A DNA stretch of 64,000 nt, taken from contig OZ287753.1 of assembly GCA_965649765.1 (NCBI GenBank), forward strand, positions 70,184,001 to 70,248,000. The letters run 5' to 3'. This document shows, piece by piece, positions 12,291-58,618 of this stretch. The stretch is from Bispira polyomma (Eukaryota). The notes beneath the pieces were generated by a model. That model ran no database searches. It was not told where the DNA came from and saw only the letters and a list, made by a program, of their open reading frames with translations. Within the stretch, counting starts at the first letter, position 1. Each line of letters starts with the position of its first letter. The translations under genes and the position numbers were made by a program.

Positions 12291-12636
12291 ACTGAACTAA
12301 TGTAAGCTTAAACTAAGTTTAATTAAGTTTACCATAACTACTGGGGTAATATTTAAATGCGCCAAAACAAATTGTATCAAAGTCTAGTCAATAAAGGTTC
12401 ACAGTAAAAACTAGGAGTCATCAGCTCCTACCTCTATGATTTTGGTACGAATTATGATTGAGGCTTAAAATGGAAAAGTTGGCACTTCCTTGCCAATGGT
12501 CACTGGTTTAAAGTATATAATCTTGACCACTTAGTATACACTGCTTTTTTCCAGCACTAAAACTGTCTGATGAGTTATATAATGTGTTGAAAGTGATGTT
12601 AAATCTCAAATCAAACACCAAGTCACAGTCACTGTT

Positions 12637-12837
12637 AGTAGTAGTATGTGGGGGGATATACCCCGGGTATTTGAGCCCAATTTGAGCCCAATTCTATCTA
12701 CTTGTGCACAAATTTGAAAAGCTCGCTCAAAAACCTGACTCTTTAAAACTTTTTGCCCTCTTTTAGTGAATATTATGTTTTTTACTTTTTAAGAATACAT
12801 TATGATTTTGGGACTACCACCTTCTTCTAAAAACATC
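12637..12837 (+). repeat. Maverick left TIR
   Basis: Reverse complement of 27489-27687; shared blocks include ggtatttgagcccaatttgagcc, gctcaaaaacctga, tttttgccctctt and actaccaccttcttc. Confidence 0.88.
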
Positions 12838-13043
12838 GGGGTTGTTTTAGAACAGCATTGTAACAGAAGGTTTTTGACATTTCTAATCTATTCATATTTT
12901 AACTATTTGTCACCATTCACTGTGGGGGTTATACGCTAGTAATTTGTCAACTTATTTTTGTCCACACTGACTTATATACTGACTAATTGTTTGGTCTCTG
13001 AGTCATTATACTGAGACATTATTTGTATTTACCTCACCTCACA

Positions 13044-13260
13044 GCAATGACAAACAATTAGTCACTCTGCTCTCACTGCTGATGAAGTCTTTTACTAAAA
13101 CCCTAAACAATTAGCAATGACAAACAATTAGTCACTACAATGACAAACAATTAGTCACTATAATGACAAACAATTAGTCACTACAATGACAAACAATTAG
13201 TTACTACAATGTCACTGCTGATGCAGTCTCTTACTAATAGCCTAAACAATGACTCACTAT
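13044..13260. repeat. Subterminal 23-bp tandem array (caatgacaaacaattagtcacta) in the Maverick
   Basis: Four tandem copies at 13115-13207, another copy at 13045, and an inverted partial copy near 12980. Confidence 0.85.
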
Positions 13261-14135
13261 GTCACTGTTTCTCAGAATCAAATTAATTATTATGGTTCAC
13301 CAATAATAAGATAAGCTTTCTCACCGTATTTTTAATAAAATTTTTATCCTCAGTAATTCTCGCATTATTAATAAATAATCGGCATAATAATAATGACCTG
13401 AACCAGGAAGTAAAGTGGGGTAACCTTTTTAATCTTAAATATTTCAGTCGTTTCTCAAGAGATTTTGATACACGAAAAAGCACAGTAATCACAATAAGAT
13501 GAGTCTTCAAACCACAATTTAACTAGAAGCAAAAAGTTGAACCCAACGGCAGGCGAACTCACGCACTATGACATTCTATAAGAATAAAACCTCACACTCT
13601 TCAGATTCAAAGTTTTTCACTTTAACCAGTACACCATGGCACAGGTAGCAATTAGAGGAAGTTCCTTTAATTCCATAATAACTGTGTAGTACATCTATTT
13701 ACTGAGTCACAATATTATTTTATTTTCTTCTTTAAACTGAATAGTATATGTATGTATATGTAATCTGTTTCTCATACACTGTCCAAAAAGCTATTCTTAT
13801 CATTAACATAATTTTAGATAGAATAGCTCAAAAAGTCAATATTTAGTACATCCAGATTTCTTTCTGATGTTATTTCTACAACTAATGCATCAATAGATGT
13901 AGGAGAATTCAACCACAAACCACCACTACCACCACCACCATGTCGATTACTAAGAGTCCTTAAACAATTTCCAGTTTCATTAAAGAGACTGCCACCACTG
14001 CCATGTCGCTTACTAACAGTATATAAACAATTTTCAGTTTTGCTAAATACACCACCACCCGTCTCAGACCTCAATAAATAAGCTGTACACCACCACAGAC
14101 TACTTCATCTCAACATTTTTATTCAATGTATCAGT

Positions 14136-15152
14136 ATGGCAGATAAATGTGACATATGTCAAAAGCTTTTTTCTAGATCCGATGTACTAAAATGTCACCT
14201 GTCAACAGTACATAAACAATTTCCAGTTTCACTTAAGCCACCACTACCAAATGTGATAAATTGGCAAAACGTAATGAAATTAGTAAAGAATAACCACCTC
14301 ACTTTTGAACATCCCTTTACATCAACATGTTCAGGTCTAACTCCTAGAAAAATGCACTTTGTTTCTAAATTGTTGCAGTTAGGTAAAATAGAACCTCAGC
14401 CAGAGAGAATATTGTATGTTTACAAGCAGTGGCAGCCATTATATGATATTATGAGGGAAATAATCTCTCCATTTATTCAGTTTATAAAAGGAATTCCAAA
14501 TAGTCCAAAAATGACAGTTTTATTAATCCACAGAAGAGAAATTTAATAATTTTGGATGATATGATGATCAGTCACTACTCACAAATGCATAACAGATCTA
14601 TTTACTGAAGAATCCCATCATAGAAACTTGTCTGTCAAACATCCAACATAAAATGTGTTTCCACCTGGCATAAATAGTGTAACCCAGAGGAGAAATATGG
14701 TTATATTCAAATCTCCAATGTCTCAAGATCAGATTAAGTGTTTGGAGCATTATATGTTTCCAGGTATGTTTCTAGCTATATACAATGAGGCTACACAAAA
14801 ACCATATGGGTATCTGATTATAGATGCAAAGCCAAATACACTTCAGGAACAGAGATTGACAACCAACATTTATCAGGAAGATATGGGGTCAGTGGAGAAA
14901 ATACCAGAGACATCAGCAGAACAAATACAGCTTTCACAGGTTGATAATAGAATACCAGCTATAATTTCACCATCAGAATTACCAAAAACAATACTACGAT
15001 TACCACGACAGCCACTGGATCAGTCGTCATCATCATTACTATCACCACAACAAGAACAGCCAATTCATAAAATCAAGACACAGTCAAATATCTCACCAGA
15101 GGTACTGCGATTACCACCACTGAAAATACCTCGAAAACCAATGACCCCCTAA
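14136..15152 (+). pseudogene. Maverick FtsK/A32-like DNA packaging ATPase with N-terminal C2H2 zinc finger (frameshifted)
   Basis: CDICQKLFSRSDVLKCHLSTVH; EHPFT with a decayed Walker A; PERILYVYKQWQPLY; IILDDMM; LFTEESHHRNLSV; ATQKPYGYLIIDAK...RLTTNIY. Confidence 0.85.
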
Positions 15153-15535
15153 ACCAAAATGGGACAGGATTTATAAATGAAATAAACATTGAACCCAAAC
15201 ATTAGACACCTGGTTGTATTAAGATTTACAACAGCATGAATTCAAGTGATTTTGTTCCTTTTCATAATTGTGGAATAATATTCAAAAAAATGTTATCATA
15301 TTGTTTAAAGAACCAAAGAGAAGTACAAGGAAGTACCTTTGAGTTTGAAAATTTGAATTTTTTTTTATCTATGTTAAGTTATGTGAGTAAACAACTAACA
15401 CAAATATTAATGTAAATAAACATTTGAATTTTATCCAACTATTGATTTACTCTCATCTACAACAATAATTAGTATAGCCTGAATTTACAGATGAAAATCA
15501 ACCGAGCAAAGAGCTTGTTTCTATAAATAAGCAAA

Positions 15536-16645
15536 ATGACAGTTAAACTCCTACACCACACAATGGTTAAAGAAAAGGGAAACTACCTACACCATGTGTA
15601 TTATAACAGTAAAACTCCGGCATCCTACGGAGGATTCAATAAATTTTATAGATTCGTGAAAGGTGAAAATAGATATTCCTTTTCAAAACAAGAGGTTAGA
15701 GAATGGTTCGGCAAACAAGACATCTTCGTCTTGCATCGACTAGTAAAAAAAAATTTAAAAGACCAGCTGTAAAAAAGTTCCAACAATGGAATATTAAGAC
15801 CGCTAACATGATAAAATTTTAAAAATATAATAGGGGTTATGGTTACTTTTGTGTACTTATAGATACCTTAACCTGCTTTTTGTGGACATTCCCTCTGCAT
15901 AGTCTGACTGGTGAGGAAATGAAAAAGGAACAAGACAACATCTTCAAAAAACAGAAGCCTACATTTCTATTTACAGACAGAGGAAGCGAATACAATAAAA
16001 GATTGTGCAAAGGTATCTAAAGACTGAAGGAATTGTACATTTTATGAGCAACAATGAAACCAAGGTTGCTATGGCCGAGAGAGTGATAAAAAACTGTTAA
16101 ATTAAAACTGATCAGAATGATGACGGGCAAAAACAATTTCAAGTGGGTTGAAGATTTAAAAGATATTACAGAGTCATACAATAAGAGCTTCCACAGAATG
16201 TTGCAAAGCACTTCTACAGAGGCTGTGATAAGAAGGATTACGATTTGTGGAGTGAAGAGTATCTCCCAAAAGAATATATATAGCAAGAGGATAAAAGCGA
16301 TAAAAAGAAAAAAGCACCAAAATCTAAATTACCCTTTAAATTAAAGGTAGGGGATCTTGTGAAGGTTGCCTATCTATCTAAGACTTTTCAAAGAGAATAC
16401 CAAGAGAGGTATTCCAGGGTAAGGCACAGTATAAATTAAAGGGTTTGAACAGTGAGCTTACAGGAGGTTTCTTTTATAACCCAGAACTGCAAAAGGTTTA
16501 CTCTGACAACAATACCACATACCAAATTGAAAAAATTCTGAAGACTAGAACTAAGAGAGGAAATAAAGAATACTTAGTCAGATGGGAAAATTATTGATCC
16601 AAATTTGACAGTTGGGTACCCGAGGAGAATATTAAAGATTTATAA
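15536..16645 (+). pseudogene. Maverick retroviral-like (rve) integrase with C-terminal chromodomain (frameshifted)
   Basis: YYNSKTPASYGG N-terminus; IDTLT; FTDRGSEY; AMAERVIK; YNKSFHRML; chromodomain YQIEKILKTRTKRGNKEYLVRWENY*SKFDSWVPEENI. Confidence 0.88.
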
Positions 16646-16670
16646 ATTGAAAGCAAAAGCGATAAAAGAA

Positions 16671-17050
16671 ATGAATCAATTATACCTACATCTTCATTCT
16701 ACCATTCATTGAGTTATCACCCTAAAAATCAGGTATGGGAATTTATTGTAGAGATAGTAGACAATATAGAGCTTGAGGGAAATTGGAAATGTGGACTGGC
16801 AGAAATCAGTTATAGCGATGAGGTTAAGGAAGCCATATATATACATATTGTGACATTGTTGATATAAGTCTGATTGAGGTTTTCTGTAGACTTATTTTAA
16901 GAGTGGTAGATAAAGCTAAACATTACAATCAAATCTACTATAAAAGGGTGAACAGAACAAATCTAGAGAGAATTAAGGTACCTGGTAAAAACTTAAAAAA
17001 CTAAAAAATTTCAACTAAGCCTACTTACGTGGTTTTAAGCCTTCAAAAAA
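16671..17050 (+). pseudogene. Maverick minor capsid protein (penton), compact
   Basis: MNQLYLHLHS...SLSYHPKNQVWEFIVEIVDNIELEGNWKCGLAEISY...YCDIV matches the Polinton minor capsid N-terminal pattern. End approximate. Confidence 0.7.
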
Positions 17051-17060
17051 AAACAATAAC

Positions 17061-17304
17061 AATGGTTACTTGGAATAAGGTTTGTGAAAATATGAGAGAG
17101 GGGAAATTGAAAATGGATAGAAAACTATATATAATAGAGGAACAGACAGGTGGGGGAAATAATGAAAATGAACTAGTTAGCATAATATCTCCTACAGAAC
17201 AGCAGATTGATATGGCTAGATGGGAACTAAAAATGAAACCAAAAAAGGGAAAAGTAGTTAAAAGCAAAAAACAAGAAAATTACAAAGAAAAAGAAAATAA
17301 ATAA
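17061..17304 (+). CDS. Small Maverick ORF with QTGGG motif and Lys-rich tail (candidate core/DNA-binding virion protein)
   Basis: MVTWNKV...EEQTGGGNNENELVSIISPTEQQIDMAR...KPKKGKVVKSKK; lies between the minor and major capsid genes. Confidence 0.45.
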
Positions 17305-17358
17305 TAGAAAGAAAAAACAAGTTAAAAAACAAAGAAAATACTGAATATAGCTCAAAAA

Positions 17359-17363
<5 letters not shown>

Positions 17364-17413
<50 letters not shown>
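17364..17413. repeat. (TA)n microsatellite
   Basis: Direct reading. Confidence 0.95.
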
Positions 17414-17416
<3 letters not shown>

Positions 17417-17480
17417 TGTTACAGTCAAATAGATCTTCAGTTCACTTCTTGCTTTTGACAGTATAAAAATCCAAATTAAA

Positions 17481-18680
17481 ATGAATGTCTTACAGGAAAA
17501 AGTGGCTCTTTTTCAAAAACCTTTGATAGATCCATCAGTCCATCATATTGATTGGGTTGAATACAGACCAAGCGGTCAAATTAAAAGTGGAAATGTAATT
17601 GAATTTAATGGAACAGGGGATGGGACGGATTATATAGATTTGAAGAAAAGTAGATTGCATATTTCAATGAAAATTGCAGATAGTTATGGAAATAACTTAC
17701 CAGCAGCTGCTAAAGTTGGTCCCGTCAATTTAACATTACATTCTCTCTTTCGTCAGGCAGATCTAACTCAAATCAAAGCAAATCAATATTTCACCAGGAG
17801 TTGGAATTAACTATCCCCACAAAAGTTTATTGGATGTATGGTTACATAATAGTTTTGTGAGTCAACAGGGACAGTTGGAAAATGAACTGTTTGCAAATGA
17901 CACAGCTGATACTCATAATATCACAAGTGGGGATGATAATATAGGGTTTGCTATTACACATGAGAGATGTGCAGCAAGCACAGTAGTGTACTTATACAGT
18001 CCTTTAGATGTGGATATTGCCGATCAAGATAGACTCATTGTAAACGGAGTCCAGATCAATCTAAAATTATATCCCAGTACTGATAGGTTTAGTTTAATAA
18101 TGGAGATAAAGGATACAAGGTAGAAATAATTAATGCTGCTTTAATGAGCTGACAGGTAAAATTAAATCCCTAGCTTGTACTAGCTTATGCAAAAGCTTTG
18201 AAGGTGGGACCAGAATTATACCCTTTCTGGCAAAGCGAATTCAAGACTTTTACCATGCCAAAAGGGAATATGATGTGGAGTGATGATGGAACTTTTCATG
18301 GAGAGGTTTCCAGCAAATTAATTGTAGGTGGAAACTACATTGAAAATCCATTTAAATTTCATCACTACCATTTAAATTATTTAGAATTTGACTAGCAGAC
18401 CTACTTTCATGGGAGGACTATATGCAGAAGCATATAATAGCTTGTTTTATGGAAGATATGGTGAAAATGAGACAAATATACAGATTACCCAAATGGTTAT
18501 TGTCTTTATGTGTTTAATATAGACAGTAATGTGAGAGGTGACCTTAAATCACAACCTAAAAAGGGTCACAGAAGAATAACTGTAAATTTCGGAAAAGCTT
18601 TAAGAGAAAGTGTAACTGCAATATTATACGGTCGTTTACCATCTATGTTAACTATTTCTGAGGCTAGAATTGTAGAATAA
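17481..18680 (+). pseudogene. Maverick double-jelly-roll major capsid protein (frameshifted)
   Basis: LFQKP...WVEYRP...IEF...DYIDLKKSRLHI...VGPVNLTLHSLFRQ; DQDRLIVNGVQINLKL; NPFKFHHYHLN; PNGYCLYVFNI; ARIVE* end. Confidence 0.88.
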
Positions 18681-19092
18681 TGAATACTTCTGAACTAAAA
18701 GAAAATTGTTGAATGATAGATTCATCAGCAAATATTATGGTGGAGTATATGCAGCAAAAAATTCTGATTGTAAACAGAAAACCCTACTCTCACAAAGGGG
18801 AACATTGGATAGCAATGTATGTAAGTAAAAAAGAGGCAGAATATTTTGATTATTTAGGTGATTTAGCTACGAAAACTTTTAAAAATTTTCTGTTGAGACA
18901 TCAAGATAGTTATAGCAAAAATATCACAAGAGTACAAAGTTATAAGAGCATGTTATGTGGGGAATATTGTTATATTATGCTTACCATAAATGTAGGAGAA
19001 AGAGCTATACTGATATCTTAGAAAGTTTCGATGAAGATTATAAACAAAATGATGTGAATATAAAATCATTTTATATTTTGGAATTTCTTTAA
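18680..19092 (+). pseudogene. Adenain-like cysteine (maturation) protease
   Basis: IVN...KGEHWIAMY...EYFDYLG...RVQ...LCGEYC (H/D/Q/C catalytic pattern); TAATG coupling with the major capsid stop. Confidence 0.88.
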
Positions 19093-19119
19093 AATGCTAA
19101 TGGTTTAGCCTTTTAATCA

Positions 19120-19390
19120 ACAACCAACAAAGTAGATAAATCAATGCTGTCAAAGTAAACAGTGATGAAGTAATTGAACAAACAAATAAATGCTGTCAAA
19201 GTAAATAATGATGATGAAATTGAACAAATAGTTCCTTTGTGTCAAAGCATATAGTGATAAGGTAATTGGTTAAACAATGCTGTCAAAGTAAATAAAGTCA
19301 CAGTATTTGGTTAAATAGTCAAAGTAAATAATGGTAATTGGTTAAACAACGCTGTCAAGGTAAATAGTGATGATGTAATTGATGAATAAC
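19120..19390. repeat. Degenerate intergenic array in the Maverick (tgctgtcaaagtaaa...aattg units)
   Basis: About 6 copies of gtcaaagtaaa or close variants, spaced ~35-50 bp. Confidence 0.75.
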
Positions 19391-19659
19391 TTATGAATTG
19401 TGAGTAATGTTTTAGTAAAATCACAGAAAATTACTCAATTTTAAAAAAGGATATAAATTGCAACCACATTGCAGTCAGAAAAGAATCAAAATGGCAGAGA
19501 ATATATAATCAAAGGGGAGCAAGAGAAAATGAGGCTGACTGTGTTGTTGCAGCCTCTGCATCTAGTTATAGAAGAAGAATAGATAACCAAGACAGAATAA
19601 GTGAACTTACAAAAAAGTTCCGCAATTGCCAATGTAAAGAAGAATCACTGGCTATGAGT

Positions 19660-19922
19660 TGGGGGGGCCGCGGTGGCCTAGTGGTTAGCAAGCATTGCGT
19701 TTCACAATCACTGGTCTCTCACCTCTGGGATCGGCTGGCGTGGGTTCGACTCCCGTCGAGGCCTATGTGGGAAAGGTGGTAGTTCCTTACTGTGGGCCGC
19801 TGGTTTCTCTGCGGAACCTTGACCGACTGTTTGTAGTGTTTCCTCCAGCGTTTTCAACTACCCGTCCCAATATATCCCACTAAAAGGTAGTAGAATGGAC
19901 GTTAAATATCCAAATTCAAATT
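19660..19922 (+). mobile_element. tRNA-derived SINE
   Basis: ggggccgcggtggcctagtggt A box, ggttcgactcc B box, caaatt-repeat tail; 8-bp TSD ctatgagt (19652-19659 / 19923-19930). Confidence 0.9.
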
Positions 19923-21013
19923 CTATGAGTAGGGATTGGGTAGATTACAAAGTCTTCCACAACAGATTAGAAAGTTTCAGAAGTTGGCCAAAAAGTACTG
20001 GTGTGAGTCCAGAGGATGCAGCCAGGGGGATTTCGATACACTGGTTATGGTGACAGTTGTGTATCAGTTCCCTAATGTATAGTTATTGATAAAGTTGGTA
20101 TGGGTAATGCTAAGTGAGAAGTCAGTAAAAGATAAGGTTTTGAGGTTTATTTTCTGTACATATTATTTCTATGTACAGGGTATACACAATATATTTAAAA
20201 TTTTTAAAATACGTGTAAAATTTTAAATTAGCCCATATGGCCAGTACAAGCCCACTAAAGCGGACATAACATGTTAATATATGTAGGTAAAACCCTAGGA
20301 CCATACTAGTTTCGTGGAACCTTATGAACATCCATTTTATATGCCTTTGAACTTTATGTATCTCTAATTATGTTAGCCAAAAGTTTACCTTCTACTACGA
20401 AACCACTGCTTAAAGCTGGAACTCGCGTCCTGCGGCACCTAGTCGCCTAGCGAAGAGACGTTCCCAACTGCAGACATGTATTCCTCCCTGGTAGCCCACA
20501 CCAGAGGGTAGTTTACAAAAAGGGAACAGAATCTTCACACGGACACGAGTTCAACTTACCAGCAGAGGCACGTCAGTTATACTTAATGGAGGAGTAAAGT
20601 GGAAGGTGGTGGGAAACATAAAATTTTCTTTCAGTGTTTACTGTTCACTGTCTAAATCAAAATGGTGCTAGAATCTGGGTATACAGAAGCTAAATCAGCA
20701 GGGGGTTAATTAGTGATTGGTTCCCACCGTCACAGTTGAATGAACAAGTGCAGAACAAGAAAGGTTTTTAAAATGGTAATATGGGTATATGGTGAACTGA
20801 CACAGCAGTCCCCTAAAGTGCTCGTGCTAGTCACAGTTCCCTAATGTATAGTTATTGATAAAGTTGGTATGGGTAATGCTAAGTGAGAAGTCAGTAAAAG
20901 ATAAGGTTTTGAGGTTTATTTTCTGTACATATTATTTCTATGTACAGGGTATACACAATATATTTAAAATTTTTAAAATACATGTAAAATTTTAAATTAG
21001 CCCAAACCCAAGT

Positions 21014-21997
21014 TCAAGCAGAAGAGAGGAGTTTTGTAAAGGTAAGTGGGATTATAGAGGCGGCTTGAGAAGTAGATTGCAAATATGTCCAAACGGCAGA
21101 GCTTCGCCACAGCCCATGCGCCATAATATTTTGTAAAGAAACATTATTGTTAAATGCCAGAGTGGCTCCAGATCTTCTGAAGGTGTGAAATCCATGGATG
21201 GAAGGGTTGATACCTAAATGTTGAAGTACTGTTCTCAAAGCTGCCCGAATATGAGAATCCACGATGACGTGGTGAGGTGGAAGTTGTGAAAGAAAAATTG
21301 GTGAGAGTGGACAGATTTTTCTAGATGCACAGAGTTCTGTAAGAGCCTTAACTGGGCAAAGTGATGGGTTGTCTATTTTTGGTAATTGCACTACATGTGA
21401 TTTAGTTCTGTCTTGTAAATTCTTTGCCCATTTTATTATTATGTGAACCCCAGGGGGGCCAAAGATGAGATCTTGTTTTAGCAAGTGTCTTGAGGGATCA
21501 AATTTGCTCCTGGAGTGGGGGGCAATATTTGACATGCGCAGAAATCCAAAGAATGCTATGAGAAATATGGCTCTATACAGTGGTGGGTCCTTCAAAATTT
21601 GGCAGGTTTTTGAAATTTCTAACAATTAGTGTATATCAAAAACCCCTTTTGGAGAAGGCCTAAAAGAGGAAGTATGAACTAAACTGCGAGTAAACAGGGA
21701 TACAGAGTTGTGTTCTAGCACCGTGTAGTTTAGGTTATATTTCAAACACATAAACTTAATACCTGCCAAGTAGTTGTTGACAACTTTTGGAGATATATTG
21801 TTCTGAGTGAGATATTCCAGAAAAGCAAGTACAGAGTGTACTGTGATGTCTTTTATATTCACATATTGTAAGAAAGAAAGATAAGTCCTGAAATGACTGT
21901 AATATGCTGTTGTGGTAGCAGGCCTGAGTGCAGAATGTATCCTATTGATGGCTGCTAAACCCAACGTGTCTGAAGAAGATGTGGAACCTAAAATCAC
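21014..21997 (-). pseudogene. Tyrosine recombinase (SAM-like N-terminus plus catalytic domain), one internal TAA at 21626-21628
   Basis: AFFGFLRMSN (R), KWAKN (K), HTFRRSGAT (HxxR), HGLWRSSAVWTY (W...Y). ORFs 21626-21997 and 21014-21625 are in the same frame. Confidence 0.92.
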
Positions 21998-24755
21998 ACA
22001 TTAAGGTTGAGATTAAAATGTGACACTGGAACTTGTTTCCGTTCAAATGTGGCTAGTAGCCTCATCATTTCCCTATTGGGTGGGTTATCCGAATACACTC
22101 TGGACAACGCATCTGCCAAAATATTTTCCTTACCCTTAATGTGTACTATATTCAATGTAATGTCATAAGTAGAGGTAATCAACCAGATATTGCGAATGCA
22201 TGCTGCTAAGTACATGTCTCTCGTTTTTTCAGTCTGTACGACCAGGACCACGGCCATGTTGTCGCAGTGGACAGTCACCCTTTGGTGTGCCCAGTCTTTT
22301 CCCCAAATTTTTAATGCTAACACTATATTCACCATTTCTAGTTGTGTAATATGTAGGTCAGTGTCATAAATTTTGTGAACGGGTGTATAATATACCTGAT
22401 TATTCCAAATTCCCCCTAGGCCTGTCAAACATGCATCCAAATACATTTCTTTATCAGCCTTAATGTGGATAGGATTTATGTATGTAATGCCATTATATGA
22501 AAATAGAAATGTGATAAACCAATCCAAATCCTGTTTGATATGATTAGTAACCTTAAAATGTTTAGCCCCGGGAGATGCTCTAAACACTGATAAAAGACGA
22601 TTAATGAAGCATCTAGCGGGTTTAACACATTTATGTATGTAAAGGAGTTTTCCCAAAATTGATTGAAATTTAGTGCACGATAGCCATGATTTCTGACGTG
22701 CTTCCACACAGGCTTCAAAAATTTCAGTAATTTTTTCTTTAGTAATACTTATTGTACCTTTAGATATGTCTATGTCTATTCCCAGAAATGTAACCTTAGA
22801 GGAGGGAGCGCATACTTTATCCGGATTCATAGGATTCAAAAATTTCAGTAATTTTTTCTTTAGTAATACTTATTGTACCTTTAGATATGTCTATGTCTAT
22901 TCCCAGAAACGTAACCTTAGAGGAGGGAGTGCATACTTTATCCGGATTCATAGGAAGGCCTAGATTGTTCAAAAGATTGCAAAGTTGTAAGAAACCTTCA
23001 TCTGCTTTGTCTTTATGACAGACGCAGGCGTAATCATCAATGTAACAATGCAATTTGAATCCCAACTTCTGCATGTGATCTGCTATAAGGTCAGAGCATC
23101 GCTGAAACACGGCACTGCCGTGCGCCCAGCCGAACGCAACGGCAGCGTCCACGTAGTACTTGTCGTCATGCTTGATGCCTAGCTTTAGTGCGTCCACCGG
23201 ATCTACCCTTAAATTACGGAATGCGCGAGCAACGTCCACCTTAAAGATCAGAGGTTCTTTAGTTTCGCGAATACTGTCTGTGACGTTGTCAATGTTGGGA
23301 AATTTCAAAACAAATTCTATGCCGTCATAGGATTCCCTACTTACATTGTCATTAACTACATATCCAGAAGGATGTGAAAGGTTAAGAATGACCCTACATA
23401 TATCTACGTCCTTAGGTCTAGTGAGCAAAGGGGAACAATGAAATTGCAAATCTGGTACCTTGTCCACTGAGCCCAACATTGCACCCTTACTCCATTCCTT
23501 TTCAAGATATTGATCAATAGCTTCGGAAAATTGTAACGCAGAGTGATGGTTAACTACGTCTGAGCAATGTAATTGGTCAGGATTATCTAATGAAAGAGGA
23601 AATCCGAATTTTAAATACTGCACGATCAATTTGTCTCGGTGGTCTTTTGCAATATCCTCCCAACCTTCAATATTGAGTTGAGATTTCAAGGGTATTCTTG
23701 CCTGTCTATAATTTGGCAGTCCAGTATTCCTAATAATGTTAGCTACTTCTGTCATTGTCCTGAATATTATCTATATGGACCGAATGCCTGTCTGGTCCTA
23801 TAAATTGAAATTTTCTGTCTGATACTTTAATAAAACCAATACTCTTAGAAACATCAGAAATATCCTTAATATTGTTTGTAAGTTTAGCAGAAGAACTGTG
23901 TCCCATTTCTGGGCTGATCAGCCCGTCTATGGTTACATCAGTTGGATTATTCATGTAAGTCGAGCTCACCTTGATTTTTGTGTCGCTTCTCTTTGTATGA
24001 GTAGCAACTGTGTTTTCAACAACTGTTTGAGTGTTATTTGCCTCAATCAGCTTGTCGATAACACCACATAAATATCGAGTATAATCACATGAATGACTGT
24101 CATAACTGATCAGGTCCTGTTTGTAGTTCAAGTGAGCCAATTTTGCATTGGTTTGTTGTTCAACACTAAGTTGCTTAATATTCCACATTACTTGCACTGA
24201 AATACTAACACTCATAATATCCAAAGTGATTAATTGAAAACTCGGTAGATCACTAAGCGTGACATAAATGATTCTATTTCCTTGATGTACTACATAACAG
24301 AAACCCGACCAGTTACTGTACTCTTTGAAACGCAAGTACACCACCTGGTGCTGTAAACCACTTTGTGGCCTATAAAAAATGCAATTCATTACAAATATGT
24401 CACATTTGGTAGCCATAATGTCACCATATATGAGAACATTGTTTGGACTATAATGTCCTCGATTATGTACATATTCATGTGTAAGTTTGTTCTGGATTGT
24501 ACTTTTCCAGATATTACTGAAATCATCGCTTACTGCTGAAGGTATGAGTTCATTATATATTTCCTTATCATTACTAATACTATAATTAGTTGGAATGTTA
24601 GTTTGGTTGTTTCCACAGAATTTACAAATTATAAAATTACACTTATTAGATATACTGTCACTACCAAATTTACAAAGCTTTTTTGTTACTTTATCACTAT
24701 TATTACAATTTTCTACTTGGTCTATAGTCCCAACACCTGGTCGTTGACTGACTAC
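21994..24755 (-). pseudogene. pol: DIRS-type pol: N-terminal region, reverse transcriptase and RNase H (frameshift near 23750, 121-bp duplication)
   Basis: SPLLTRPK, RVILNLS, FKVDVARAFRNL, AFGWAHG, YIDDY; RNase H LDACLTGLGG, HITQLE, HCDN, HIKGKENILADALSR. Confidence 0.9.
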
Positions 24756-25907
24756 CTATTTATTTACTTGACTACTGTCTACTGTCTTTTTACTGCTTCC
24801 TGCCTTGTTACACTTGTGCTCTGGGTGAACACTTTCTTTATTTCCAATTTTAAAACAATAACTACATATGTGCCTATATTGTCCATGATCCCCTTCATTT
24901 GAGCACGAGCCGTTATTAAAAAATTTGCACACACTTTTCACCTTCTGGTTTAGCTGAATTGACTGTGAATTCATTAAAGCAAGTTGTGAGGTACTAAGCC
25001 TGTTTAAGGCCCACTGCGTTGCATTTGCCCAATCCAGTCTTCCCTCCTCGACTTCTTGCATATTAACTCCCCATGCTGCCCTTACTGCTGGCCAGGGCAG
25101 CGAAGCAGCATCACGAAACATATAGACCATCTGATGAAGCATCTGTCTCATCAGGTTCAGATCCGAAACCTGGGCGACATTAGCCAGTTGGCCCGCAGCC
25201 CACTGAGGCATTGATAACTCATCATAGTTGGGTCTTTTTCTGGCAGTTCCCTCTAACCAGCCCTCGTTTGCCCATCGTGCTTGCGGTTTAGTGACACAAA
25301 CATCAGTAGTATTGTAGCGCCCAGATTTGTGACGTAAATGGGGCTTACCTTGAGACAGTTCGTGTCTTAGCTGGGTGTCGTAAGCTGCCAATCTCTGGTT
25401 TACTGCGGCACTGACTTCCGGAATCGTCTTCATAACATCAATGCGTGGGATGATACCGTCACGTTGGTAATCTTGGTGGTATTGTGTAGGAAACGAGGCC
25501 AATTGGCTGTGTGTGTGGAGTGACTGAGCCGGCTGTACGTGTTGTGGAGGTGGCGCCTGGTACATCGGTAATGCAGGAACAGTCCTAGCCCGGAGGTCCA
25601 TCATGGTGTCATTACGTGCCGGATGCATCGGTGAATTCAAAGGGGTAGAATTGACTGCGCCCTTTAATTCCACCCTGTCGAGCCGTTTGTTGATATCGGC
25701 ATTGGCAGATTCCAGACGTTGTAGAATGGACATTACTTCGGCCATGCTATTACTGTCTGTAGGACGTACGGGCGGTTCTATTTCGGATAATGGTTCACGT
25801 AAGTTTCTTACCACTGGATCCTTTATTTTTGCAGACGCCGCCCGCCTTGTGGTCAAAGGTTTTCTTGCCTGAGGTGCACTGCCGGGTGTTTTCTTTGTCT
25901 TACCCAT
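24756..25907 (-). CDS. gag: gag-like ORF1 of the YR retrotransposon (383 aa)
   Basis: Intact ORF with YDELSMPQW motif and C-terminal CKFFNNGSC...H...HICSYC...H...C zinc-binding cluster typical of DIRS-group ORF1. Confidence 0.85.
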   Translation of the reverse strand: MGKTKKTPGSAPQARKPLTTRRAASAKIKDPVVRNLREPLSEIEPPVRPTDSNSMAEVMSILQRLESANADINKRLDRVELKGAVNSTPLNSPMHPARNDTMMDLRARTVPALPMYQAPPPQHVQPAQSLHTHSQLASFPTQYHQDYQRDGIIPRIDVMKTIPEVSAAVNQRLAAYDTQLRHELSQGKPHLRHKSGRYNTTDVCVTKPQARWANEGWLEGTARKRPNYDELSMPQWAAGQLANVAQVSDLNLMRQMLHQMVYMFRDAASLPWPAVRAAWGVNMQEVEEGRLDWANATQWALNRLSTSQLALMNSQSIQLNQKVKSVCKFFNNGSCSNEGDHGQYRHICSYCFKIGNKESVHPEHKCNKAGSSKKTVDSSQVNK

Positions 25908-26332
25908 TCTTTACAATTTGTGTACATGTAAGGCTGTATAACTCATTCAACATAAAAACTAAAAACCCTAAAATCTAACTATGTACAGGATACTTGTAAA
26001 GTTCTTGTAAAATCATAAAATTCCTTTTTGGAAACATAAAATTTTCTTTCAGTGTTTACTGTTCACTGTCTAAATCAAAATGGTGCTAGAATCTGGGTAT
26101 ACAGAAGCTAAATCAGCAGGGGGTTAATTAGTGATTGGTTCCCACCGTCATAGTTGAATGAACAAGTGCAGAACAAGAAAGGTTTTTAAAATGGTAATAT
26201 GGGTATATGGTGAACTGACACAGCAGTCCCCTAAAGTGGTCGTGCTAGTCAGTCTGTGGTGTTACATGCAGCTGAAGAACTGGAATTACTTTGAAGAACA
26301 GTTGAAAATGCACTCCAAACTCAACCCGAATT

Positions 26333-26617
26333 GTGAATATGTGCAAACCTAGTGAATTGTCAAAAATTAAAAGAGGTAATTATAAGTTGTATCTAAATCG
26401 TCTGGAAAGCTACAGAGGGTGGAGCGACGGCAAGATAGTAAAACCAGAAAAGTTAGCCAGAGCTGGATTAATGTACACTGGTTTAGGGGACAGATGTCAG
26501 TGCCTCTGGTGTTCTATAATTCTCCATTCCTGGGAGTACCTGGACGAGCCCTTAGTTGAACATCAAAGATATTCAAAAGACTGGGGTTACATAAAAATGA
26601 ATCTGTCAGATGACTAA
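26333..26617 (+). CDS. BIR (IAP-type) single-domain gene 2, open frame, last Zn-ligand Cys replaced by Trp
   Basis: RLESYRGW...PEKLARAGLMYTGLGDRCQCLWCSIILHSWEYLDEPLVEHQRYSKDWGY. Confidence 0.85.
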   Translation: MNMCKPSELSKIKRGNYKLYLNRLESYRGWSDGKIVKPEKLARAGLMYTGLGDRCQCLWCSIILHSWEYLDEPLVEHQRYSKDWGYIKMNLSDD

Positions 26618-26826
26618 ATAGTTTAGAAACATGTTCATAGTGTGTTGTAAATAATATTATATGTATGGTGATTTGTTTATTTTATTTTGTAAAAATGTGT
26701 GTATATGTAAGTTTTGTGTAAATAATATTGAAAATAAAGGTAGTTTAGAAAATATAGTTGTTCTTATTTCTCTTTTTAAAAAAGAAAACAATAACAACAA
26801 ACAAACCCCACACCTGTAATTTTAAA

Positions 26827-27464
26827 ATGTCATATATATTAACAATAGACAACCCAGATTGTGATTCAAAAGCCATTATGTGTTGGAAGAAAGAAGGTGA
26901 AGGGTTTCAAAATGCTTTAGAACTATGAGATTTAACAGAGTTCTATAAGAACCAAATCTTCTACAACAGTTTTTGTGAAAGACGTACACATTTGGTTTTG
27001 TTACATAAAATAAACACAAGTGAACAAATTCATGTTTTGAACTAAAAGAATTAACAATGAAAGAACTATACATTAAATTATATGACAAGAAGAATATTGA
27101 ATATTTAAACAAAATCTTTCAGTGAAAGAATGAAATATTTTGGTTTCAGAAATATAACAATAAGAGATGAAAGCTACATAAAATTATTCAGAAGTATACC
27201 CACTATCAACAAGGCAATAAGGAGAGAAAATATGAAGATGTCAATTTCTATTAGTGAATCTGAAAAGATTTAAATAACAAAATCACTATCCTATATAAGA
27301 TAATCGGCAAATTCAGAAAGTTTCCAAGGGATATAATATACCTTTCAATATTCAGTGAAGGGAGAGAATTCTCTTTCACTGTAAGTGACTGGCATCAAAT
27401 AGTTAAAATGTGGAAGGTCAGAAAGCTTCTGTTACAAGAATGCTGTACTAAAAGTACAAACTAA
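26827..27464 (+). pseudogene. Degenerate right-end Maverick ORF(s), function unknown (possibly PC4-like)
   Basis: ATG at 26827 and broken frames (YIKLFRSIPTINKAIRR...; FSFTVSDWHQIVKMW) ending just inside the TIR boundary. Confidence 0.35.
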
Positions 27465-27488
27465 ATTAGAACCCAAATTCCAATTTGG

Positions 27489-27687
27489 AGGTTTTTCGAA
27501 GAAGGTGGTAGTATGTGGAGGTCTCAAAATCATAATGTATTCATTCAAAGTAAAAACTCTATAAGAGGGCAAAAAGTTTCCAGATCAGGTTTTTGAGCGG
27601 GTTTTTTAAATCTGTGCAAAAATAGATAGGATTAGGCTCAAATTGGGCTCAAATACCAGATGTATATCCCCCCCACATACTACTACT
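27489..27687 (-). repeat. Maverick right TIR
   Basis: Inverted imperfect copy of 12637-12837 ending in actactact. Confidence 0.88.
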
Positions 27688-28825
27688 ACTGTCATTGTAA
27701 TTGAACTGACAGTCACAGTGCAAAAGATTTTTATCAATGCTAAAATCTATATTCAAAGGGTTTATATACACTGAGGAGATAAAAAAGACATTTAGAAAAG
27801 TAGAGCCTTTGTCACATTAATTATGCATAGTTCAAACTGAGCCTGTAGTTCTGAATATATTAAAGAGAGAAAGAACGGGAGACAGATCTAACATATATTA
27901 AACTAATTAAAATATATTAATTGAAATATATTGAGGGTCACCTGGTGATGTTCTAATTTATGTAAATATAAATGTGTGTGTAGGTTTATAGTATGAAATT
28001 ACCTCTATTGAGGTCTCAGCCGACTCCACAATTTACACCCCCAGCCTGTGTTCTTGCACATGCCAACCAATTGTTTAGTCTCAGCTCCCTCAGGAAAAAG
28101 AGAACAACGTTGTGTAAAGCACCTTGTCCAAGGGTACAATATTCAGACCTGCAGCGAGGATTGATTCTGGACCTTTAGATCCAAAAGACCGACACTCTAA
28201 CTGCTAGGCCACAGAGATCACTAAAGGGTGAAACTAGCATTATCCGTACTGTGAACCATGGACTTGCCGCAAGTATTTTATATACTTTCCCACAACATGA
28301 AACCAGTAGGAATTTAAAATGCACTTAGAATTAGTATTGCATACCAACCTAATTTGTTACCTTGGCAAAATCCTAAACTTCTTTGTGGTTCAGTCAATAA
28401 TGCAAATTGTTACTGTTAGTCAAAGTATTATATTGGTGTGAACTCAGAATGTTGGGAATTGACACTAACTACTTTTTACTTGTCTTTTTTTAGAGATCCT
28501 AATTCAATTAAAAATACATGTACTATTTTAATGACTTTTAAACGATTTTCTATTAGTATATTAAACATTCATTATTATTAAACATTCATTATTGTGTTTT
28601 CAATTAAAAATACATGTACTATTTTAATGACTTTTAAACGATTTTCTATTAGTATATTAAACATTCATTATTGTGTTTTTAGTGAGTATATTGAATTATG
28701 TGCAGTTCAATGAGTGCATAACAGAAAATCAATAAAAATGGTCTTAAATCTTGGTAGTCGTATTTAAATACCTTGCTGGTAGACCAAAGCAGCCAAACTA
28801 TCTGGACCATTACATGGTAGAGATA

Positions 28826-29660
28826 AGTAGTTGGAGTCAAGCACACACCTCTCAGCAAAGCCAAGTGAGTGTAGCAGTTGTACTGTATAAGTTGTTGGAG
28901 TCAAGCATACACCTTTCAACAAAGCCAAGTGAGGTTAGTAGTTGTACTGTATAAGTGATTGGAGTCAAGCACATGCCTTTCAGCAAAGTCAAGTGAGTGT
29001 AGTAGTTGTACTGTATAAGTGGTTAGAGTCAAGAACATGTCTCTCAGCAAAGCCAAGTGAGGTTAGTAGTTGTACTGTATAAGTGATTGGAGTCAAGCAC
29101 ACGCCTTTCAGCAAAGTCAGGTGAGGTTAGTAGTTGTACTGTATAAGTGGTTAGAGTCAAGTACACACCTCTCAGCAAAGCCAAGTGAGGTTAGTAGTTG
29201 TACTGTATAAGTGATTGGAGTCAAGCACACGCCTCTCACCAAAGCCAAGTGAGTGTAGTAGTTGTACTGTATAAGTGGTTGGAGTCAAGCACAAGCCTCT
29301 CAACAAAGCCAAGTGAGGTTAGTAGTTGTGCTGTATAAGTGGTTAGAGTCAAGCACACACCTCTCAGCAAAGCTAAGTGAGTGTAGTAGTTGTACTGTAT
29401 AAGTGGTTAGAGTCAAGCACACACCTTTCACCAAAGCCAAGTGAGTGTAGTAGTTGTACTGTATAAGTTGTTGGAGTAAAGCACACGCCTCTCACCAAAG
29501 TCAATTGAGTCTAGTAGTTATACTGTATAAGTTGTTGGAGTCAAGTATACGCCTCTCAGCAAGGTCAAGTGAGTGTAGTAGTTGTACTGTATAAGTGGTT
29601 GGAGTCAAACACACACCTCTCAGCAGAGACAATTCTGTGCAGTAGTTGTACTGTATACAG
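28826..29660. repeat. Minisatellite, 61-62-bp unit, ~13 copies
   Basis: Unit gtagttgtactgtataagtggttggagtcaagcacacacctctcagcaaagccaagtgagt. Confidence 0.95.
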
Positions 29661-32887: not shown

Positions 32888-33870
32888 AGTGCATTTATGT
32901 ATTTACATTCATAGTCCCTTGAACTAATATACCAAAAGTCAAAGTCTTTTCATTTTCCAAGGTCAGAGACTCCAGTCAAGGTGACAAGTGAGACATTGAC
33001 TGTATTGACTGTGCTGTAGCATTTGGCTCTATCCATGGAGTGCTGTATTCGGCCAATTTCGTAGCTCACTTTGTGAAATCATACATCTCTATAGTCATAA
33101 GAGGGGGCAGAACAAATCAAATATACACCAACAACACAACGTCGTTTGAGAGATTTCTCCAAGTCAAATTGCAGTGTCATGTGGAGCGGTGGAGTGTGGT
33201 ATTGTGTCTGGGCCAGTGAGTATTGTTTGTACATTTGTCTTTATTTGATTTTTTGTAGTGTCAGGTTGTCTAGTCGGCTGTCTGTAAGGCCTTTAATAAC
33301 TATATTTTCCAAACTTGGTGGGAGAGTAAGAGTTTTGTTCGGAAAATAGAAAGTTCTTAAAACTAGAAAAGTTATTTTAAAGTGCATTTATGTATTTACA
33401 TTCATAGTCCCTTGAACTAATATACCAAAAGTCAAAGTCTTTTCATTTTCCAAGGTCAGAGACTCCAGTCAAGGTGACAAGTGAGACATTGACTGTATTG
33501 ACTGTGCTGTAGCATTTGGCTCTATTCATGGAGTGCTGTATTCGGCCAATTTCGTAGCTCACTTTGTGAAATCATACATCTCTATAGTCATAAGAGGGGG
33601 CAGAACAAATCAAATATACACCAACAACACAACGTCGTTTGAGAGATTTCTCCAAGTCAAATTGCAGTGTCATGTGGAGCGGTGGAGTGTGGTATTGTGT
33701 CTGGGCCAGTGAGTATTGTTTGTACATTTGTCTTTATTTGATTTTTTGTAGTGTCAGGTTGTCTAGTCGGCTGTCTGTAAGGCCTTTAATAACTATATTT
33801 TCCAAACTTGGTGGGAGAGTAAGAGTTTTGTTCGGAAAATAGAAAGTTCTTAAAACTAGAAAAGTTATTT
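32888..33870. repeat. 493-bp-period tandem duplication
   Basis: 32888-33377 matches 33381-33870 with one visible mismatch; identical ORFs at 33146 and 33639. Confidence 0.95.
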
Positions 33871-56525: not shown

Positions 56526-58618
56526 TTCTATTAGGTTTCACATAGATTATAGCTTCGAAATAAATCACGCAATTTGATGAATCATGAGGTTTTACTAGAA
56601 AACATGATATTAATCGTCTTCCATATGGTGTCTGTCAAAGACAGACTCATTGCAGACTCATTGCTTGTTCTAAGAAGAAGTCATCAGAGTACAATATGTT
56701 AGCTGTCTAGAAGGAGGAAGGCATTGTCTATATATACATGCTATTTTTTTACCTGGTACTTCAGGTGGAACTGATGAAACCTTTTAGTTGGTGACCATAG
56801 TACACAGTTGTTGGGAGTATTTCGAAAAGGAGGTAAGATTGTATTAGGGGTAAAAAAACTATTTGTAAGATTGATGATTATAGTTGTGTTGAAACTAGTA
56901 TAAGCTCCCCAAGTTAGGATGTATCATACTTGGGCATTTAGCAGTTTTCGGAATGTTATAGTATCTTGCAGCCTGCTGGTTAGGAAGTTGGTCACCTGAT
57001 CAGAAGATCCCCCTGTTTAACTCTCTATTGGAGAAGTTTGTGATCGGCATGATGATAACGTCATTGGGGGATAACATCGTTTGGCAGGGTGTGAACATGT
57101 CGGAGCCCAATGATAACAATCATGTCTATGTTAGAGGATTATATATAAATGCTCAATAATAATAATAATAATACATAACTCTCCTTGTCTGTGTTAAGCG
57201 TTAGGTTGAGTTGAGCTTAAGTTTTTGCAAGTGTGCAGTCAGGAATCAAAAGGATATGCTTGGTGATGTTAAGGCAATCTCTTGTTGTTATTCAATTGTT
57301 GAAAGTGGGCATTGTTTCCGGGTAATGGCTATTTTGGTTCAGGCAATGAACAATTATTGATATATCGCTGAAAACTAATCTTATATATCCAATTTTTCAT
57401 AAAATTATGCAAATATGCAATGTTTTTTTTCTAAAGCTACCACGTTATTACATTTACATTACTTACTTTACTAAATACATTATTTATCATGTTATTTTTC
57501 ATAAAAATACATGAATTTTCTGCAGTATAATCTCTAGGTATCAAAATAAAATATTGACATAGGTTGGACATAGGTTTTATTAATTGACGGTATTAGTGTA
57601 CTAATGCAAATTACTTTTTGCATCTTAATGCAAAACATATATTTTAAGAACATTTTCGCTTTACTAATCAAATGTATCTTTCTCCTTATTAAACAGAGAT
57701 CACCACTATCAAAAGCTGAAAAAAATATTGACTATGTAGTTAAAGTGCAGAAAAATATTCGAAAGTGTTCATTACTGGAAAAAGTTATGCCCACTTTACA
57801 CAATCCCTTTAGAGTTTTTCTGATGTAAGTATTGTTTATTTGTATTTATATTTATAACTTAATTTTCCTTAACACAATTGAAGCACCCATAATTCTAAGT
57901 AGTGAATTTTCTGGTTATGTCAACAGTACTTGTTTTATAACTAGCATTATAATAAGTATATAAGCTGTGTTCAAGTAAACTTCACTATGTTGTTATTACA
58001 AAGACTATTGTATAATTTCCTGGAACGTTGTATAACGTCATTGAGACCCCATCCACTATATATTACATATTCAGGGTTGCTAAAATGAATACATAAAATA
58101 ACATACAGCACCCACATTTGGTAAAAAAGAATATATTGTGATGCATATCCAAGTAGCATGCTGGAACATTAACAGAATGTATTTGTAAGGTTGAGTCATG
58201 ATTTTAAGAGGCATTTGTGAATTTTCTTTACATCGTAGTTGTCAGAGTAAGAGTTAAAGTGTATGCAGCATAAAAATAAAATGTGCAGCTGTTTAAGTTA
58301 CAAAAGCAATCAATATCATATTTTAATGAAACTCATTTTGATTTAATTATCGTCCAGACATTTAACAAAAGGTATTTTGCTCATTATATCATTGTATGAA
58401 AGCCTTTTGCCTAAACAAAAGCCATCAGCCTAGAATCCATTAAAAACAAATTCCATTTTAAACATCACTATTCATGTAAAGCTTGTTCCAGTTCAATTTA
58501 ATTTGAAATTTTCGCATAACTTGATAATAGAGCATTCACTAATGCAAGTAAGCAATTTTAGCATCCATCTAGGATTGAACCTAGGTTACCGGTGATTCAA
58601 CTCCTATGTTGGTAGTTT

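What the first reader, a model, noticed from the sequence alone, without database searches (positions are those of the whole stretch)
12637..27687. Compact Polinton-like virus with a full virion module but no visible DNA polymerase
Seen: intact AGT termini, TIRs and a 6-bp TSD, plus ATPase, integrase, penton, MCP and adenain genes. Removing the nested YR element (6187 bp) and SINE (~271 bp) leaves only ~8.6 kb, almost all occupied by other genes or arrays. I see no pPolB motifs and no gap large enough for one. Established: canonical Mavericks encode a large protein-primed PolB. Inference: this may be a pPolB-less, helper-dependent lineage that packages and integrates itself but borrows replication. 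The alternative is a post-insertion internal deletion.
Basis: partly seen in the sequence, partly recalled or inferred. Interest (0 to 1): 0.8.

Follow-up and report, generated by a model that had tools for sequence, protein, structure and literature searches.

The report
Helper-swapping Polinton satellite without polymerase
This 15-kb insertion is a decayed copy of a small family of virus-like Polinton transposons that lack their own DNA polymerase and carry a foreign DNA-packaging gene; that gene also sits inside the ends of three other Polinton families here, so it likely marks a parasite that lives off full-size Polintons and switches between them.

Summary
The ends, the 5-of-6 target duplication, the nested Ngaro-like element and SINE, the gene remnants and the absence of pPolB are confirmed. 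Every Polinton gene in this copy is broken.

It is not a private deletion. Six loci share the layout (subfamily X3), a three-way recombinant:
- Ends, capsid, protease and IAP come from pPolB-carrying family A.
- Integrase and most of the penton come from family E.
- Where pPolB would lie sits a foreign zinc-finger–ATPase–helical fusion gene ("X").

X occurs at 27 examined loci, never beside a polymerase core, inside the ends of families A, B, C and E. Five of six two-ended copies have their own target duplications. X lesions are mostly private and its ATPase shows purifying selection between subfamilies. X3 arms were exchanged repeatedly with family-A sublineages. Two further fusion-ATPase families (Y, Z) also lack a polymerase.

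Best reading: helper-dependent Polinton satellites that swap helper ends and keep a packaging ATPase. Self-integration is doubtful, since 4 of 4 X3 integrases share a frameshift. pPolB-less mobile Polintons are already reported; I found no paper on helper-swapping ATPase satellites.

The parts
12631..12636 (.). Left copy of the target-site duplication (ACTGTT)
   Evidence: 5 of 6 bases match the right copy
12637..12921 (+). Left terminal inverted repeat. It is an inverted copy of the family-A RIGHT end (copy-back-like) and is longer than the ~150-170 bp repeat of full-size family A
   Evidence: 12637-12920 matches family-A right ends; only 12637-12810 matches their left ends
12922..14135 (.). 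Non-coding region shared by X3 copies and, from ~13300, by X4 copies; holds 23-bp and 63-bp tandem repeats; no pPolB remnant
14136..15282 (+). Gene X, broken: C2H2 finger, proline repeats, A32-like packaging ATPase, proline linker, start of the CxxC-helical domain. About 580 bp of the 3' part are deleted in this copy only
   Evidence: relatives; tree
15560..16645 (+). rve integrase with C-terminal chromodomain, from family E; broken, with a -1 frameshift shared by X3 copies
16668..17060 (+). Penton (label from gene order and recall), broken; chimeric, family E up to about 16900 and family A after it
17481..18680 (+). Major capsid protein, family-A type, broken
18680..19089 (+). Adenain-like protease (label from motifs and gene order, recalled), family-A type, broken
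19408..26614 (+). BIR-domain (IAP) gene of family A, split by the SINE and the Ngaro-like element
   Evidence: (BIR 1.6e-15)
19663..19923 (+). Nested SINE, a very high-copy repeat; about 271 bp with its target duplication
20065..26251 (-). Nested tyrosine-recombinase retrotransposon with split direct repeats 99% alike (Ngaro-like; name recalled); younger than the Polinton
27090..27495 (+). Remnant of the terminal 161-aa ORF of family A, with a deletion at its 5' end
27384..27687 (-). Right terminal inverted repeat, family-A type
27688..27693 (.). Right copy of the target-site duplication (ACTGTC)

Best explanation
The element is a decayed copy of a multi-copy Polinton subfamily (X3) that has no DNA polymerase and is a recombinant of two polymerase-carrying families plus a foreign ATPase-fusion gene; it was likely copied and inserted by the enzymes of full-size family A, whose ends it carries. 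Shown: the mosaic anatomy; six loci; the same gene X inside the ends of families A, B, C and E; X lesions mostly private to single copies; an excess of synonymous change between X subfamilies; repeated exchange of the right arm with family-A sublineages. Inferred: protein-primed replication starts at the captured helper ends, so a helper's pPolB can copy the satellite in trans. Template switching during co-replication would explain the arm swaps and the copy-back left end. The satellite likely keeps the fusion ATPase because it helps get satellite DNA into capsids, much as phage satellites keep their own packaging factors. The capsid and protease genes in X3 are captured helper genes that were unbroken while X3 spread.
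For: No pPolB in the window. No polymerase core at 0 of 27 X loci; 5 of 27 keep only an N-terminal stub of at most 160 aa (clade-matched queries on 24 of the 27). pPolB lies in 18 of 21 other family-A loci.

X3 integrase is sister to family-E copies, 98/96. The E-to-A crossover falls at the same place in the penton in 5 of 5 copies. X3 monophyly is rejected for MCP (p-AU 0.005), IAP (9e-56) and the terminal ORF (3e-5).

X1, X2, X3 and X4 are each one clade (17 rows). Five of 6 two-ended X elements have distinct 6-bp duplications. ATPase N/S is 0.30-1.42 between subfamilies against 3.36 for private changes (Fisher p 0.04 to 4e-5). X, Y and Z ATPases fall in a fusion clade apart from the helpers' stand-alone ATPases, 99/94. 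Z elements carry family-F ends and target duplications.
Against: Replication or packaging in trans was not observed. Selection between subfamilies could date from an autonomous donor that is now lost or unsampled. The same fusion lies beside pPolB in 3 of 32 mostly short metagenome contigs, and beside integrase in several more.

The linker shows no selection signal, and the C-terminal domain only a weak one (p 0.02-0.26). The six N/S comparisons are not independent. Only 2 of 6 X3 copies keep both ends, and one of those two (C2:103.32M) has unmatched flanks. Some Z-type elements carry part of the gene or none, so the gene is not required for spread. Genome searches score only the best candidates (150 of 615), and seven loci with distant C-domain hits were not fetched.
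Confidence: 0.65

Rival explanations
1. Passive defective derivatives. An autonomous Polinton carrying the fusion ATPase once lived in this lineage and recombined several times with other families. The pPolB-less products were moved in trans like large MITEs, and gene X rode along with no benefit to them. The selection signal is inherited from the donor.
For: The fusion is a normal gene beside pPolB or integrase in other organisms. Satellite sizes vary widely, and 2 of 14 Z-type loci had no trace of the gene. No copy of X examined is unbroken over its whole length.
Against: No donor was found among 27 X loci, 8 Y loci or 14 Z-type loci. It needs the same gene kept in four captures for X, and again in Y and Z. 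ATPase N/S is below C-domain N/S in 11 of 11 pairwise Y and Z comparisons (not independent of each other). X lesions are not shared within any subfamily, apart from one linker frameshift in two X2 copies and one stop in two X3 copies at each of two codons.
Confidence: 0.25
2. X3 was a compact virus that made its own capsid, protease, ATPase and integrase and borrowed only the polymerase. The integrase would be made through slippage at the shared frameshift.
For: MCP and protease lesions are private, and one X3 copy has both genes unbroken. Integrase changes shared inside X3 downstream of the shift are 11 synonymous to 5 non-synonymous, against 40 to 71 private (p 0.026). The same -1 occurs in 3 of 6 pPolB-carrying family-E copies. 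The catalytic D, D and E are each kept in 2 or 3 of the 3 X3 copies scored.
Against: 4 of 4 X3 integrases are out of frame early, upstream of the first catalytic aspartate. No stimulatory RNA structure follows the site: z from -0.9 to +0.3 in 7 of 8 E and X3 copies, -2.5 only in the window copy, which has a private deletion there. The site is an A/T run where slips recur. The capsid arm was swapped repeatedly with the helper.
Confidence: 0.2
3. A full-size family-A Polinton inserted here and later lost pPolB by a private internal deletion.
For: This copy does have private deletions: about 580 bp in gene X and about 200 bp near 27088.
Against: The region 12922-16900 is not family-A sequence: its ATPase is 29% identical in protein and its integrase 64% in DNA. 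The same junctions occur at other loci with different flanks.
Confidence: 0.02

Closest known systems
Animal Polintons/Mavericks (PMC8097293 and PMC4028283; passages read)
   Same: AGT-repeat ends, terminal inverted repeats, 6-bp target duplication, rve integrase, packaging ATPase, double-jelly-roll capsid, penton, protease.
   Different: No pPolB and about half the size (8.6 kb against about 17 kb). The genes come from three sources. The ATPase is a zinc-finger-ATPase-helical fusion of roughly 550-600 aa.
polB-lacking mobile polintons of Pieris mannii and a second insect group (bioRxiv 10.1101/2025.02.07.637071; section 13 and passages read; Extended Data not seen)
   Same: polB is missing while close relatives keep it; the elements have terminal repeats, stayed mobile and carry retroelement cargo.
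   Different: There the elements are otherwise highly similar to complete copies and polB loss goes with a LINE or gypsy insertion. Here a foreign ATPase gene under selection stands in that place and is shared by satellites of four helper families. The nested retroelement is private to this copy.
Tlr1 elements and polinton-like viruses that replace pPolB by a helicase (PMC4028283 passages; PMC11296320 passages; bioRxiv 10.64898/2026.10.13.758929 passages)
   Same: Capsid module and integrase without pPolB; modular exchange between elements.
   Different: Those carry another replication enzyme. No replacement replicase was seen here (ORF list and Pfam scan), and the inferred helper is another Polinton, not a giant virus.
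Phage satellites (PICI/SaPI, P4) and copy-back defective viral genomes (recalled, not from a call)
   Same: A small element that would depend on a helper for replication or capsids, keeps a packaging-related gene, and shows copy-back ends (left end here; Z palindromes).
   Different: No homology was tested or is claimed. The likeness is in logic only, and packaging hijack is not shown.

Membership tests
Polinton/Maverick (autonomous) | Terminal inverted repeats with AGT-type ends | tested here: met
Polinton/Maverick (autonomous) | 6-bp target-site duplication | tested here: met
   5 of 6 bases match
Polinton/Maverick (autonomous) | Protein-primed family B polymerase | tested here: not met
   best E 0.078 over 17 queries, positive control to 2e-291; tblastn
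Polinton/Maverick (autonomous) | rve integrase | tested here: inconclusive
   Homologue present but out of frame in 4 of 4 X3 copies
Polinton/Maverick (autonomous) | A32-like ATPase, double-jelly-roll MCP, penton, protease | tested here: met
   All four present as broken remnants. MCP by Atlas. ATPase by tree and a weak Pox_A32 hit. Penton and protease labels by gene order and recall.
Non-autonomous Polinton derivative | Ends shared with a pPolB-carrying family in the same genome | tested here: met
   family A: 18 of 21 other loci carry pPolB
Non-autonomous Polinton derivative | Independent insertions of the same pPolB-less layout | tested here: met
   six X3 loci with different flanks; target duplication testable in only 2 (one matches, one does not); four perfect duplications in X1 and X2
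Viral satellite (helper-dependent, with its own selected gene) | Own gene kept under purifying selection while lacking a replicase | tested here: inconclusive
   N/S 0.30-1.42 against 3.36; an autonomous donor phase is not excluded
Viral satellite (helper-dependent, with its own selected gene) | Replication or packaging by a helper | not testable with these tools
   Only indirect: shared ends and repeated arm exchange
Tlr1 / helicase-type polinton-like virus | SF1 or SF3 helicase, or other replicase, in place of pPolB | tested here: not met
   No such Pfam hit in 22 ORFs of the region; largest free gap 1,215 bases

The most novel reading that the evidence does not exclude
Animal Polintons have their own class of satellites. 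Elements of 3-14 kb keep a zinc-finger-ATPase-helical fusion gene that steers their DNA into a helper Polinton's capsids, and they change helper by capturing its terminal repeats. This arose at least three times (X, Y, Z) in one genome, and X alone used four helper families. The window's element is the stage at which the satellite also picked up the helper's capsid arm. If so, Polinton virions were functional in this animal lineage and were parasitised in the way phages are by PICIs.
Probability: 0.35. Interest if true: 0.85.

Novelty: new variant of a known kind. Interest (0 to 1): 0.66.

Why it matters
Whether animal Polintons make virions, and how polymerase-less copies move, are open questions; the Pannagram preprint raises the second one explicitly. 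A small element with no capsid gene has little reason to keep a packaging ATPase under selection unless capsids exist and are worth hijacking. These families therefore give an indirect, testable argument for a Polinton virion cycle in an invertebrate. They also give a natural experiment on what pPolB and the integrase recognise, since the same cargo moved with four different end sequences. Polinton surveys that require pPolB plus integrase would miss these elements.

Tried and rejected
The Pfam DNA_pol_B_2 search of the genome (91 of 218 candidates scored) missed family A altogether, so it was not used as evidence of absence. Family-specific and clade-matched queries were used instead.

The C-terminal domain of X gave no homologue at near length and only Atlas leads under 0.9. 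The model of a fusion homologue was poor (pLDDT 64, pTM 0.40) and Foldseek found nothing at E<=0.001. The MCP folding job had not finished at the last poll. PDB sequence search and Pfam gave nothing meaningful for MCP. Viral contigs held no relative.

A programmed frameshift with a downstream hairpin was looked for and not found. No RNA holder was listed. No empty-site join appeared among the 15 joints shown of 145.

The unmatched flanks of C2:103.32M are the reverse complement of the left flank of C2:66.68M. No single inversion explains this, and it is compatible with chance.

Five paper searches found no description of an ATPase-fusion satellite that swaps helper ends. Most subscription papers and Repbase are not covered; non-autonomous Polintons in Repbase are recalled, not checked. 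No supplements were read, and the Pannagram Extended Data may bear on the comparison.
Full report
OBSERVATION. The window is G000:C6:70184001-70248000 of a 1.04-Gb genome. The host appears to be an invertebrate animal: the closest named relatives of its ATPase are from bivalves. The element runs 12637-27687, with AGTAGTAGT and ACTACTACT ends and flanks ACTGTT and ACTGTC. Its inverted repeats agree at 234 of 263 aligned bases. A contig bridges the left junction without differences in 3 of 3 public runs of one study. Nested inside the IAP gene are a SINE and a 6,187-bp tyrosine-recombinase retroelement whose split repeats are 99% alike. About 8.6 kb remain. tblastn with unbroken ORFs of family-A copies places ATPase, integrase, penton, MCP, protease, IAP and a terminal ORF in that order. 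ATPase, integrase, penton, MCP and protease are all broken in this copy. Seventeen pPolB queries, from four families of this genome and from metagenome contigs, give best E 0.078 in the six frames, against 2e-291 for a decayed control.

SIBLINGS. The terminal repeat matched 40 places (40 of 52 candidates scored). Of 21 other loci with the same right arm, 18 carry pPolB in front of a short stand-alone ATPase (family A); three are truncated. Six two-ended family-A copies measure 16.8-21.2 kb with perfect target duplications. Six loci (the window, C2:66.68M, C2:103.32M, C9:60.81M, C9:41.57M, C11:38.32M) instead share a left part absent from family A. I call these X3. Only two keep both ends; the window has a 5-of-6 duplication and C2:103.32M has unmatched flanks. 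Three copies start with an inverted copy of the family-A right end; two start with the family-A left end.

A THREE-WAY RECOMBINANT. The X3 integrase is 62-69% identical in DNA to family A and forms its own clade, 100/100. A search with it found family E, which carries pPolB in the 7 loci where the integrase was recovered; X3 is sister to two E copies, 98/96. Identity to family A jumps from about 80% to 93-96% at the same point in the penton, near window 16900, in 5 of 5 copies (one is read in the next 100-base step). Beyond that point X3 copies interleave with older family-A sublineages. A single X3 clade is rejected for MCP (p-AU 0.005), IAP (9e-56) and the terminal ORF (3e-5). The arms were therefore exchanged more than once, in one direction or the other. 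X3 end branches (about 0.02-0.09) match those of the old A copies, not the young ones (0.002-0.024). I infer co-replication with family A.

GENE X. Window 14136-15282 is the remnant of one long ORF: C2H2 finger, proline repeats, A32-like ATPase, proline linker, CxxC, helical domain, acidic tail. The frame runs through in several copies. Database proteins of 430-860 aa match its ATPase (185 hits), and the five I read show a similar build. The DNA search listed 29 loci (30 of 30 candidates scored). I examined 27 X loci; one proved to be family Y and one 58-bp match was not fetched. None has a polymerase core; five keep a stub of at most 160 N-terminal residues (clade-matched queries on 24 of 27). 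X lies inside four sets of ends: family C (X1), family B (X2), family A (X3) and family E (X4). Families B and C carry pPolB at their full-size loci. Each subfamily is one clade in the X tree (17 rows; copies with under 900 bases left out). X1 and X2 have no integrase or capsid gene, yet four have perfect and different duplications: TGTATG, TGCATG, GATATG, TGTGTG. They must have been integrated in trans.

SELECTION. Among 20 copies aligned, X lesions are private. The exceptions are stops and one frameshift that recur across unrelated clades, plus three pairs inside a subfamily. In the ATPase part, differences between subfamilies have N/S 0.30-1.42 against 3.36 for private changes (Fisher p 0.04 to 4e-5; six non-independent tests). 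The linker shows no signal, and the C-terminal domain a weak one (p 0.02-0.26). MCP and protease lesions are not shared among X3 copies, and one copy has both genes unbroken. The integrase differs: 4 of 4 X3 copies covering the site have a -1 shift in an A/T run upstream of the first catalytic aspartate, as do 3 of 6 family-E copies. Changes shared within X3 downstream are 11 synonymous to 5 non-synonymous, against 40 to 71 private (p 0.026), and no stimulatory fold was found. The integrase may have been dead or made by slippage; I cannot tell.

TWO MORE LINEAGES. A protein search showed a gap between X copies (56-100%, intact stretches 70% or more) and the next ATPases (150 of 615 candidates scored). 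Of ten next-nearest loci fetched, none had integrase, MCP or protease within 10 kb, and one had an unrelated pPolB piece outside its repeats. They form family Y (8 loci, about 75-91% alike) and family Z. Z-type elements are 2.7-8.3 kb, largely palindromic, and end in the termini of pPolB-carrying family F (16.6-19.6 kb). Of 14 Z-type loci, 5 had perfect and 2 had 5-of-6 duplications in the automatic test; two of the five share flanks and are one insertion. Twelve of the 14 carry all or part of the fusion gene. In a 44-row tree X, Y and Z are three separate lineages within a clade of fusion ATPases, apart from the ATPases of helpers A, B, D, E and F (99/94). Against a satellite-only reading: in metagenome contigs the fusion lies beside pPolB in 3 of 32 mostly short loci, and beside integrase in several more.

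MECHANISM. Shown: anatomy, multi-locus spread without pPolB, trans-integration of X1 and X2, arm exchange, and constraint on the ATPase between subfamilies. From established knowledge: Polinton ends are expected to act in protein-primed replication (PMC8097293, passages), and the ATPase belongs to the packaging family of double-jelly-roll viruses (PMC4028283, passages). Inferred: a satellite that captures a family's ends becomes a substrate for that family's pPolB and integrase. Template switching yields the swaps and copy-back ends; two family-A copies also have arms of about 4 kb duplicated in inverse. The fusion ATPase is likely kept because it favours packaging of satellite DNA. I put this whole account at 0.65. 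The main rival is passive carriage of a gene selected in a lost autonomous donor (0.25).

WHAT IS KNOWN. polB-lacking mobile polintons are described in Pieris and a second insect group (bioRxiv 10.1101/2025.02.07.637071; section 13 and passages read, Extended Data not seen). Module exchange is described for the wider group (bioRxiv 10.64898/2026.10.13.758929 and PMC11296320, passages). Passages of PMC3014272, PMC6431247 and bioRxiv 10.1101/2024.01.15.575659 added nothing specific. Five searches found no account of an ATPase-fusion cassette moving between helper ends. Earlier notes of this scan mention an ATPase-keeping mini-Polinton in a coral and palindromic satellites in other genomes; these are unchecked leads, not support.

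VERDICT. A real, decayed member of a helper-dependent Polinton subfamily. It fails membership of autonomous Polintons on pPolB and works like a satellite. New variant of a known kind; interest 0.66.

Noticed in passing
G000:C3:17.78M (L252-L253), C13:29.51M, C10:11.69M, C12:15.92M, C2:8.75M, C7:35.52M and others (L264-L275): Family Z: young, largely palindromic 2.7-8.3 kb elements with ACTACTAT ends of pPolB-carrying family F and 6-bp duplications. Most carry all or part of a zinc-finger-ATPase fusion gene and no other Polinton gene.
   Followed up: partly
G000:C10:23.23M, C3:78.46M, C1:78.66M, C5:21.27M, C7:12.88M, C11:3.54M, C5:5.35M, C2:76.22M (L238-L257): Family Y: a third fusion-ATPase lineage, several copies inside nested inverted repeats, with no integrase, capsid or pPolB within 10 kb. 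Its helper family was not identified.
   Followed up: partly
window 15730-15770 and family-E integrases (L120-L137): A -1 frameshift in an A/T run early in the integrase is shared by 4 of 4 X3 and 3 of 6 family-E copies, while downstream shared changes look constrained. Possible slippage recoding; no hairpin found.
   Followed up: partly
G000:C8:43.03-43.05M and C1:89.03-89.05M (L024-L026, L032-L033): Family-A copies with about 4 kb of the right arm (part of MCP, protease, IAP) duplicated in inverse at the left end, perfect target duplications, and only the last part of pPolB: copy-back-like defective genomes.
   Followed up: partly
L028:3337-4353 (family A, C10:2.24M): The last pPolB reading-frame piece of family A ends in a NADAR domain (Pfam 1.9e-12).
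   Followed up: no
window 19408-26614; L027:6913-7866: Family A carries a two-BIR inhibitor-of-apoptosis gene and a predicted membrane protein with a Ser/Thr-rich stretch; families B and E have relatives of the membrane protein.
   Followed up: no
G000:C9:31.77M and C2:7.20M (L268, L269): Two Z elements share reverse-complement flanks, so they are one insertion duplicated with its surroundings.
   Followed up: no
G000:C2:10.84-11.25M: Four near-identical family-C-ended elements of about 13 kb lie clustered; the one fetched holds pPolB fragments and a nested YR retroelement.
   Followed up: no
window 28823-29657, 32888-33870, 52697-53293, 58617-59231: Tandem arrays outside the element: 13 x 64 bp, 2 x 493 bp, 2 x 297 bp and 2 x 309 bp.
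   Followed up: no
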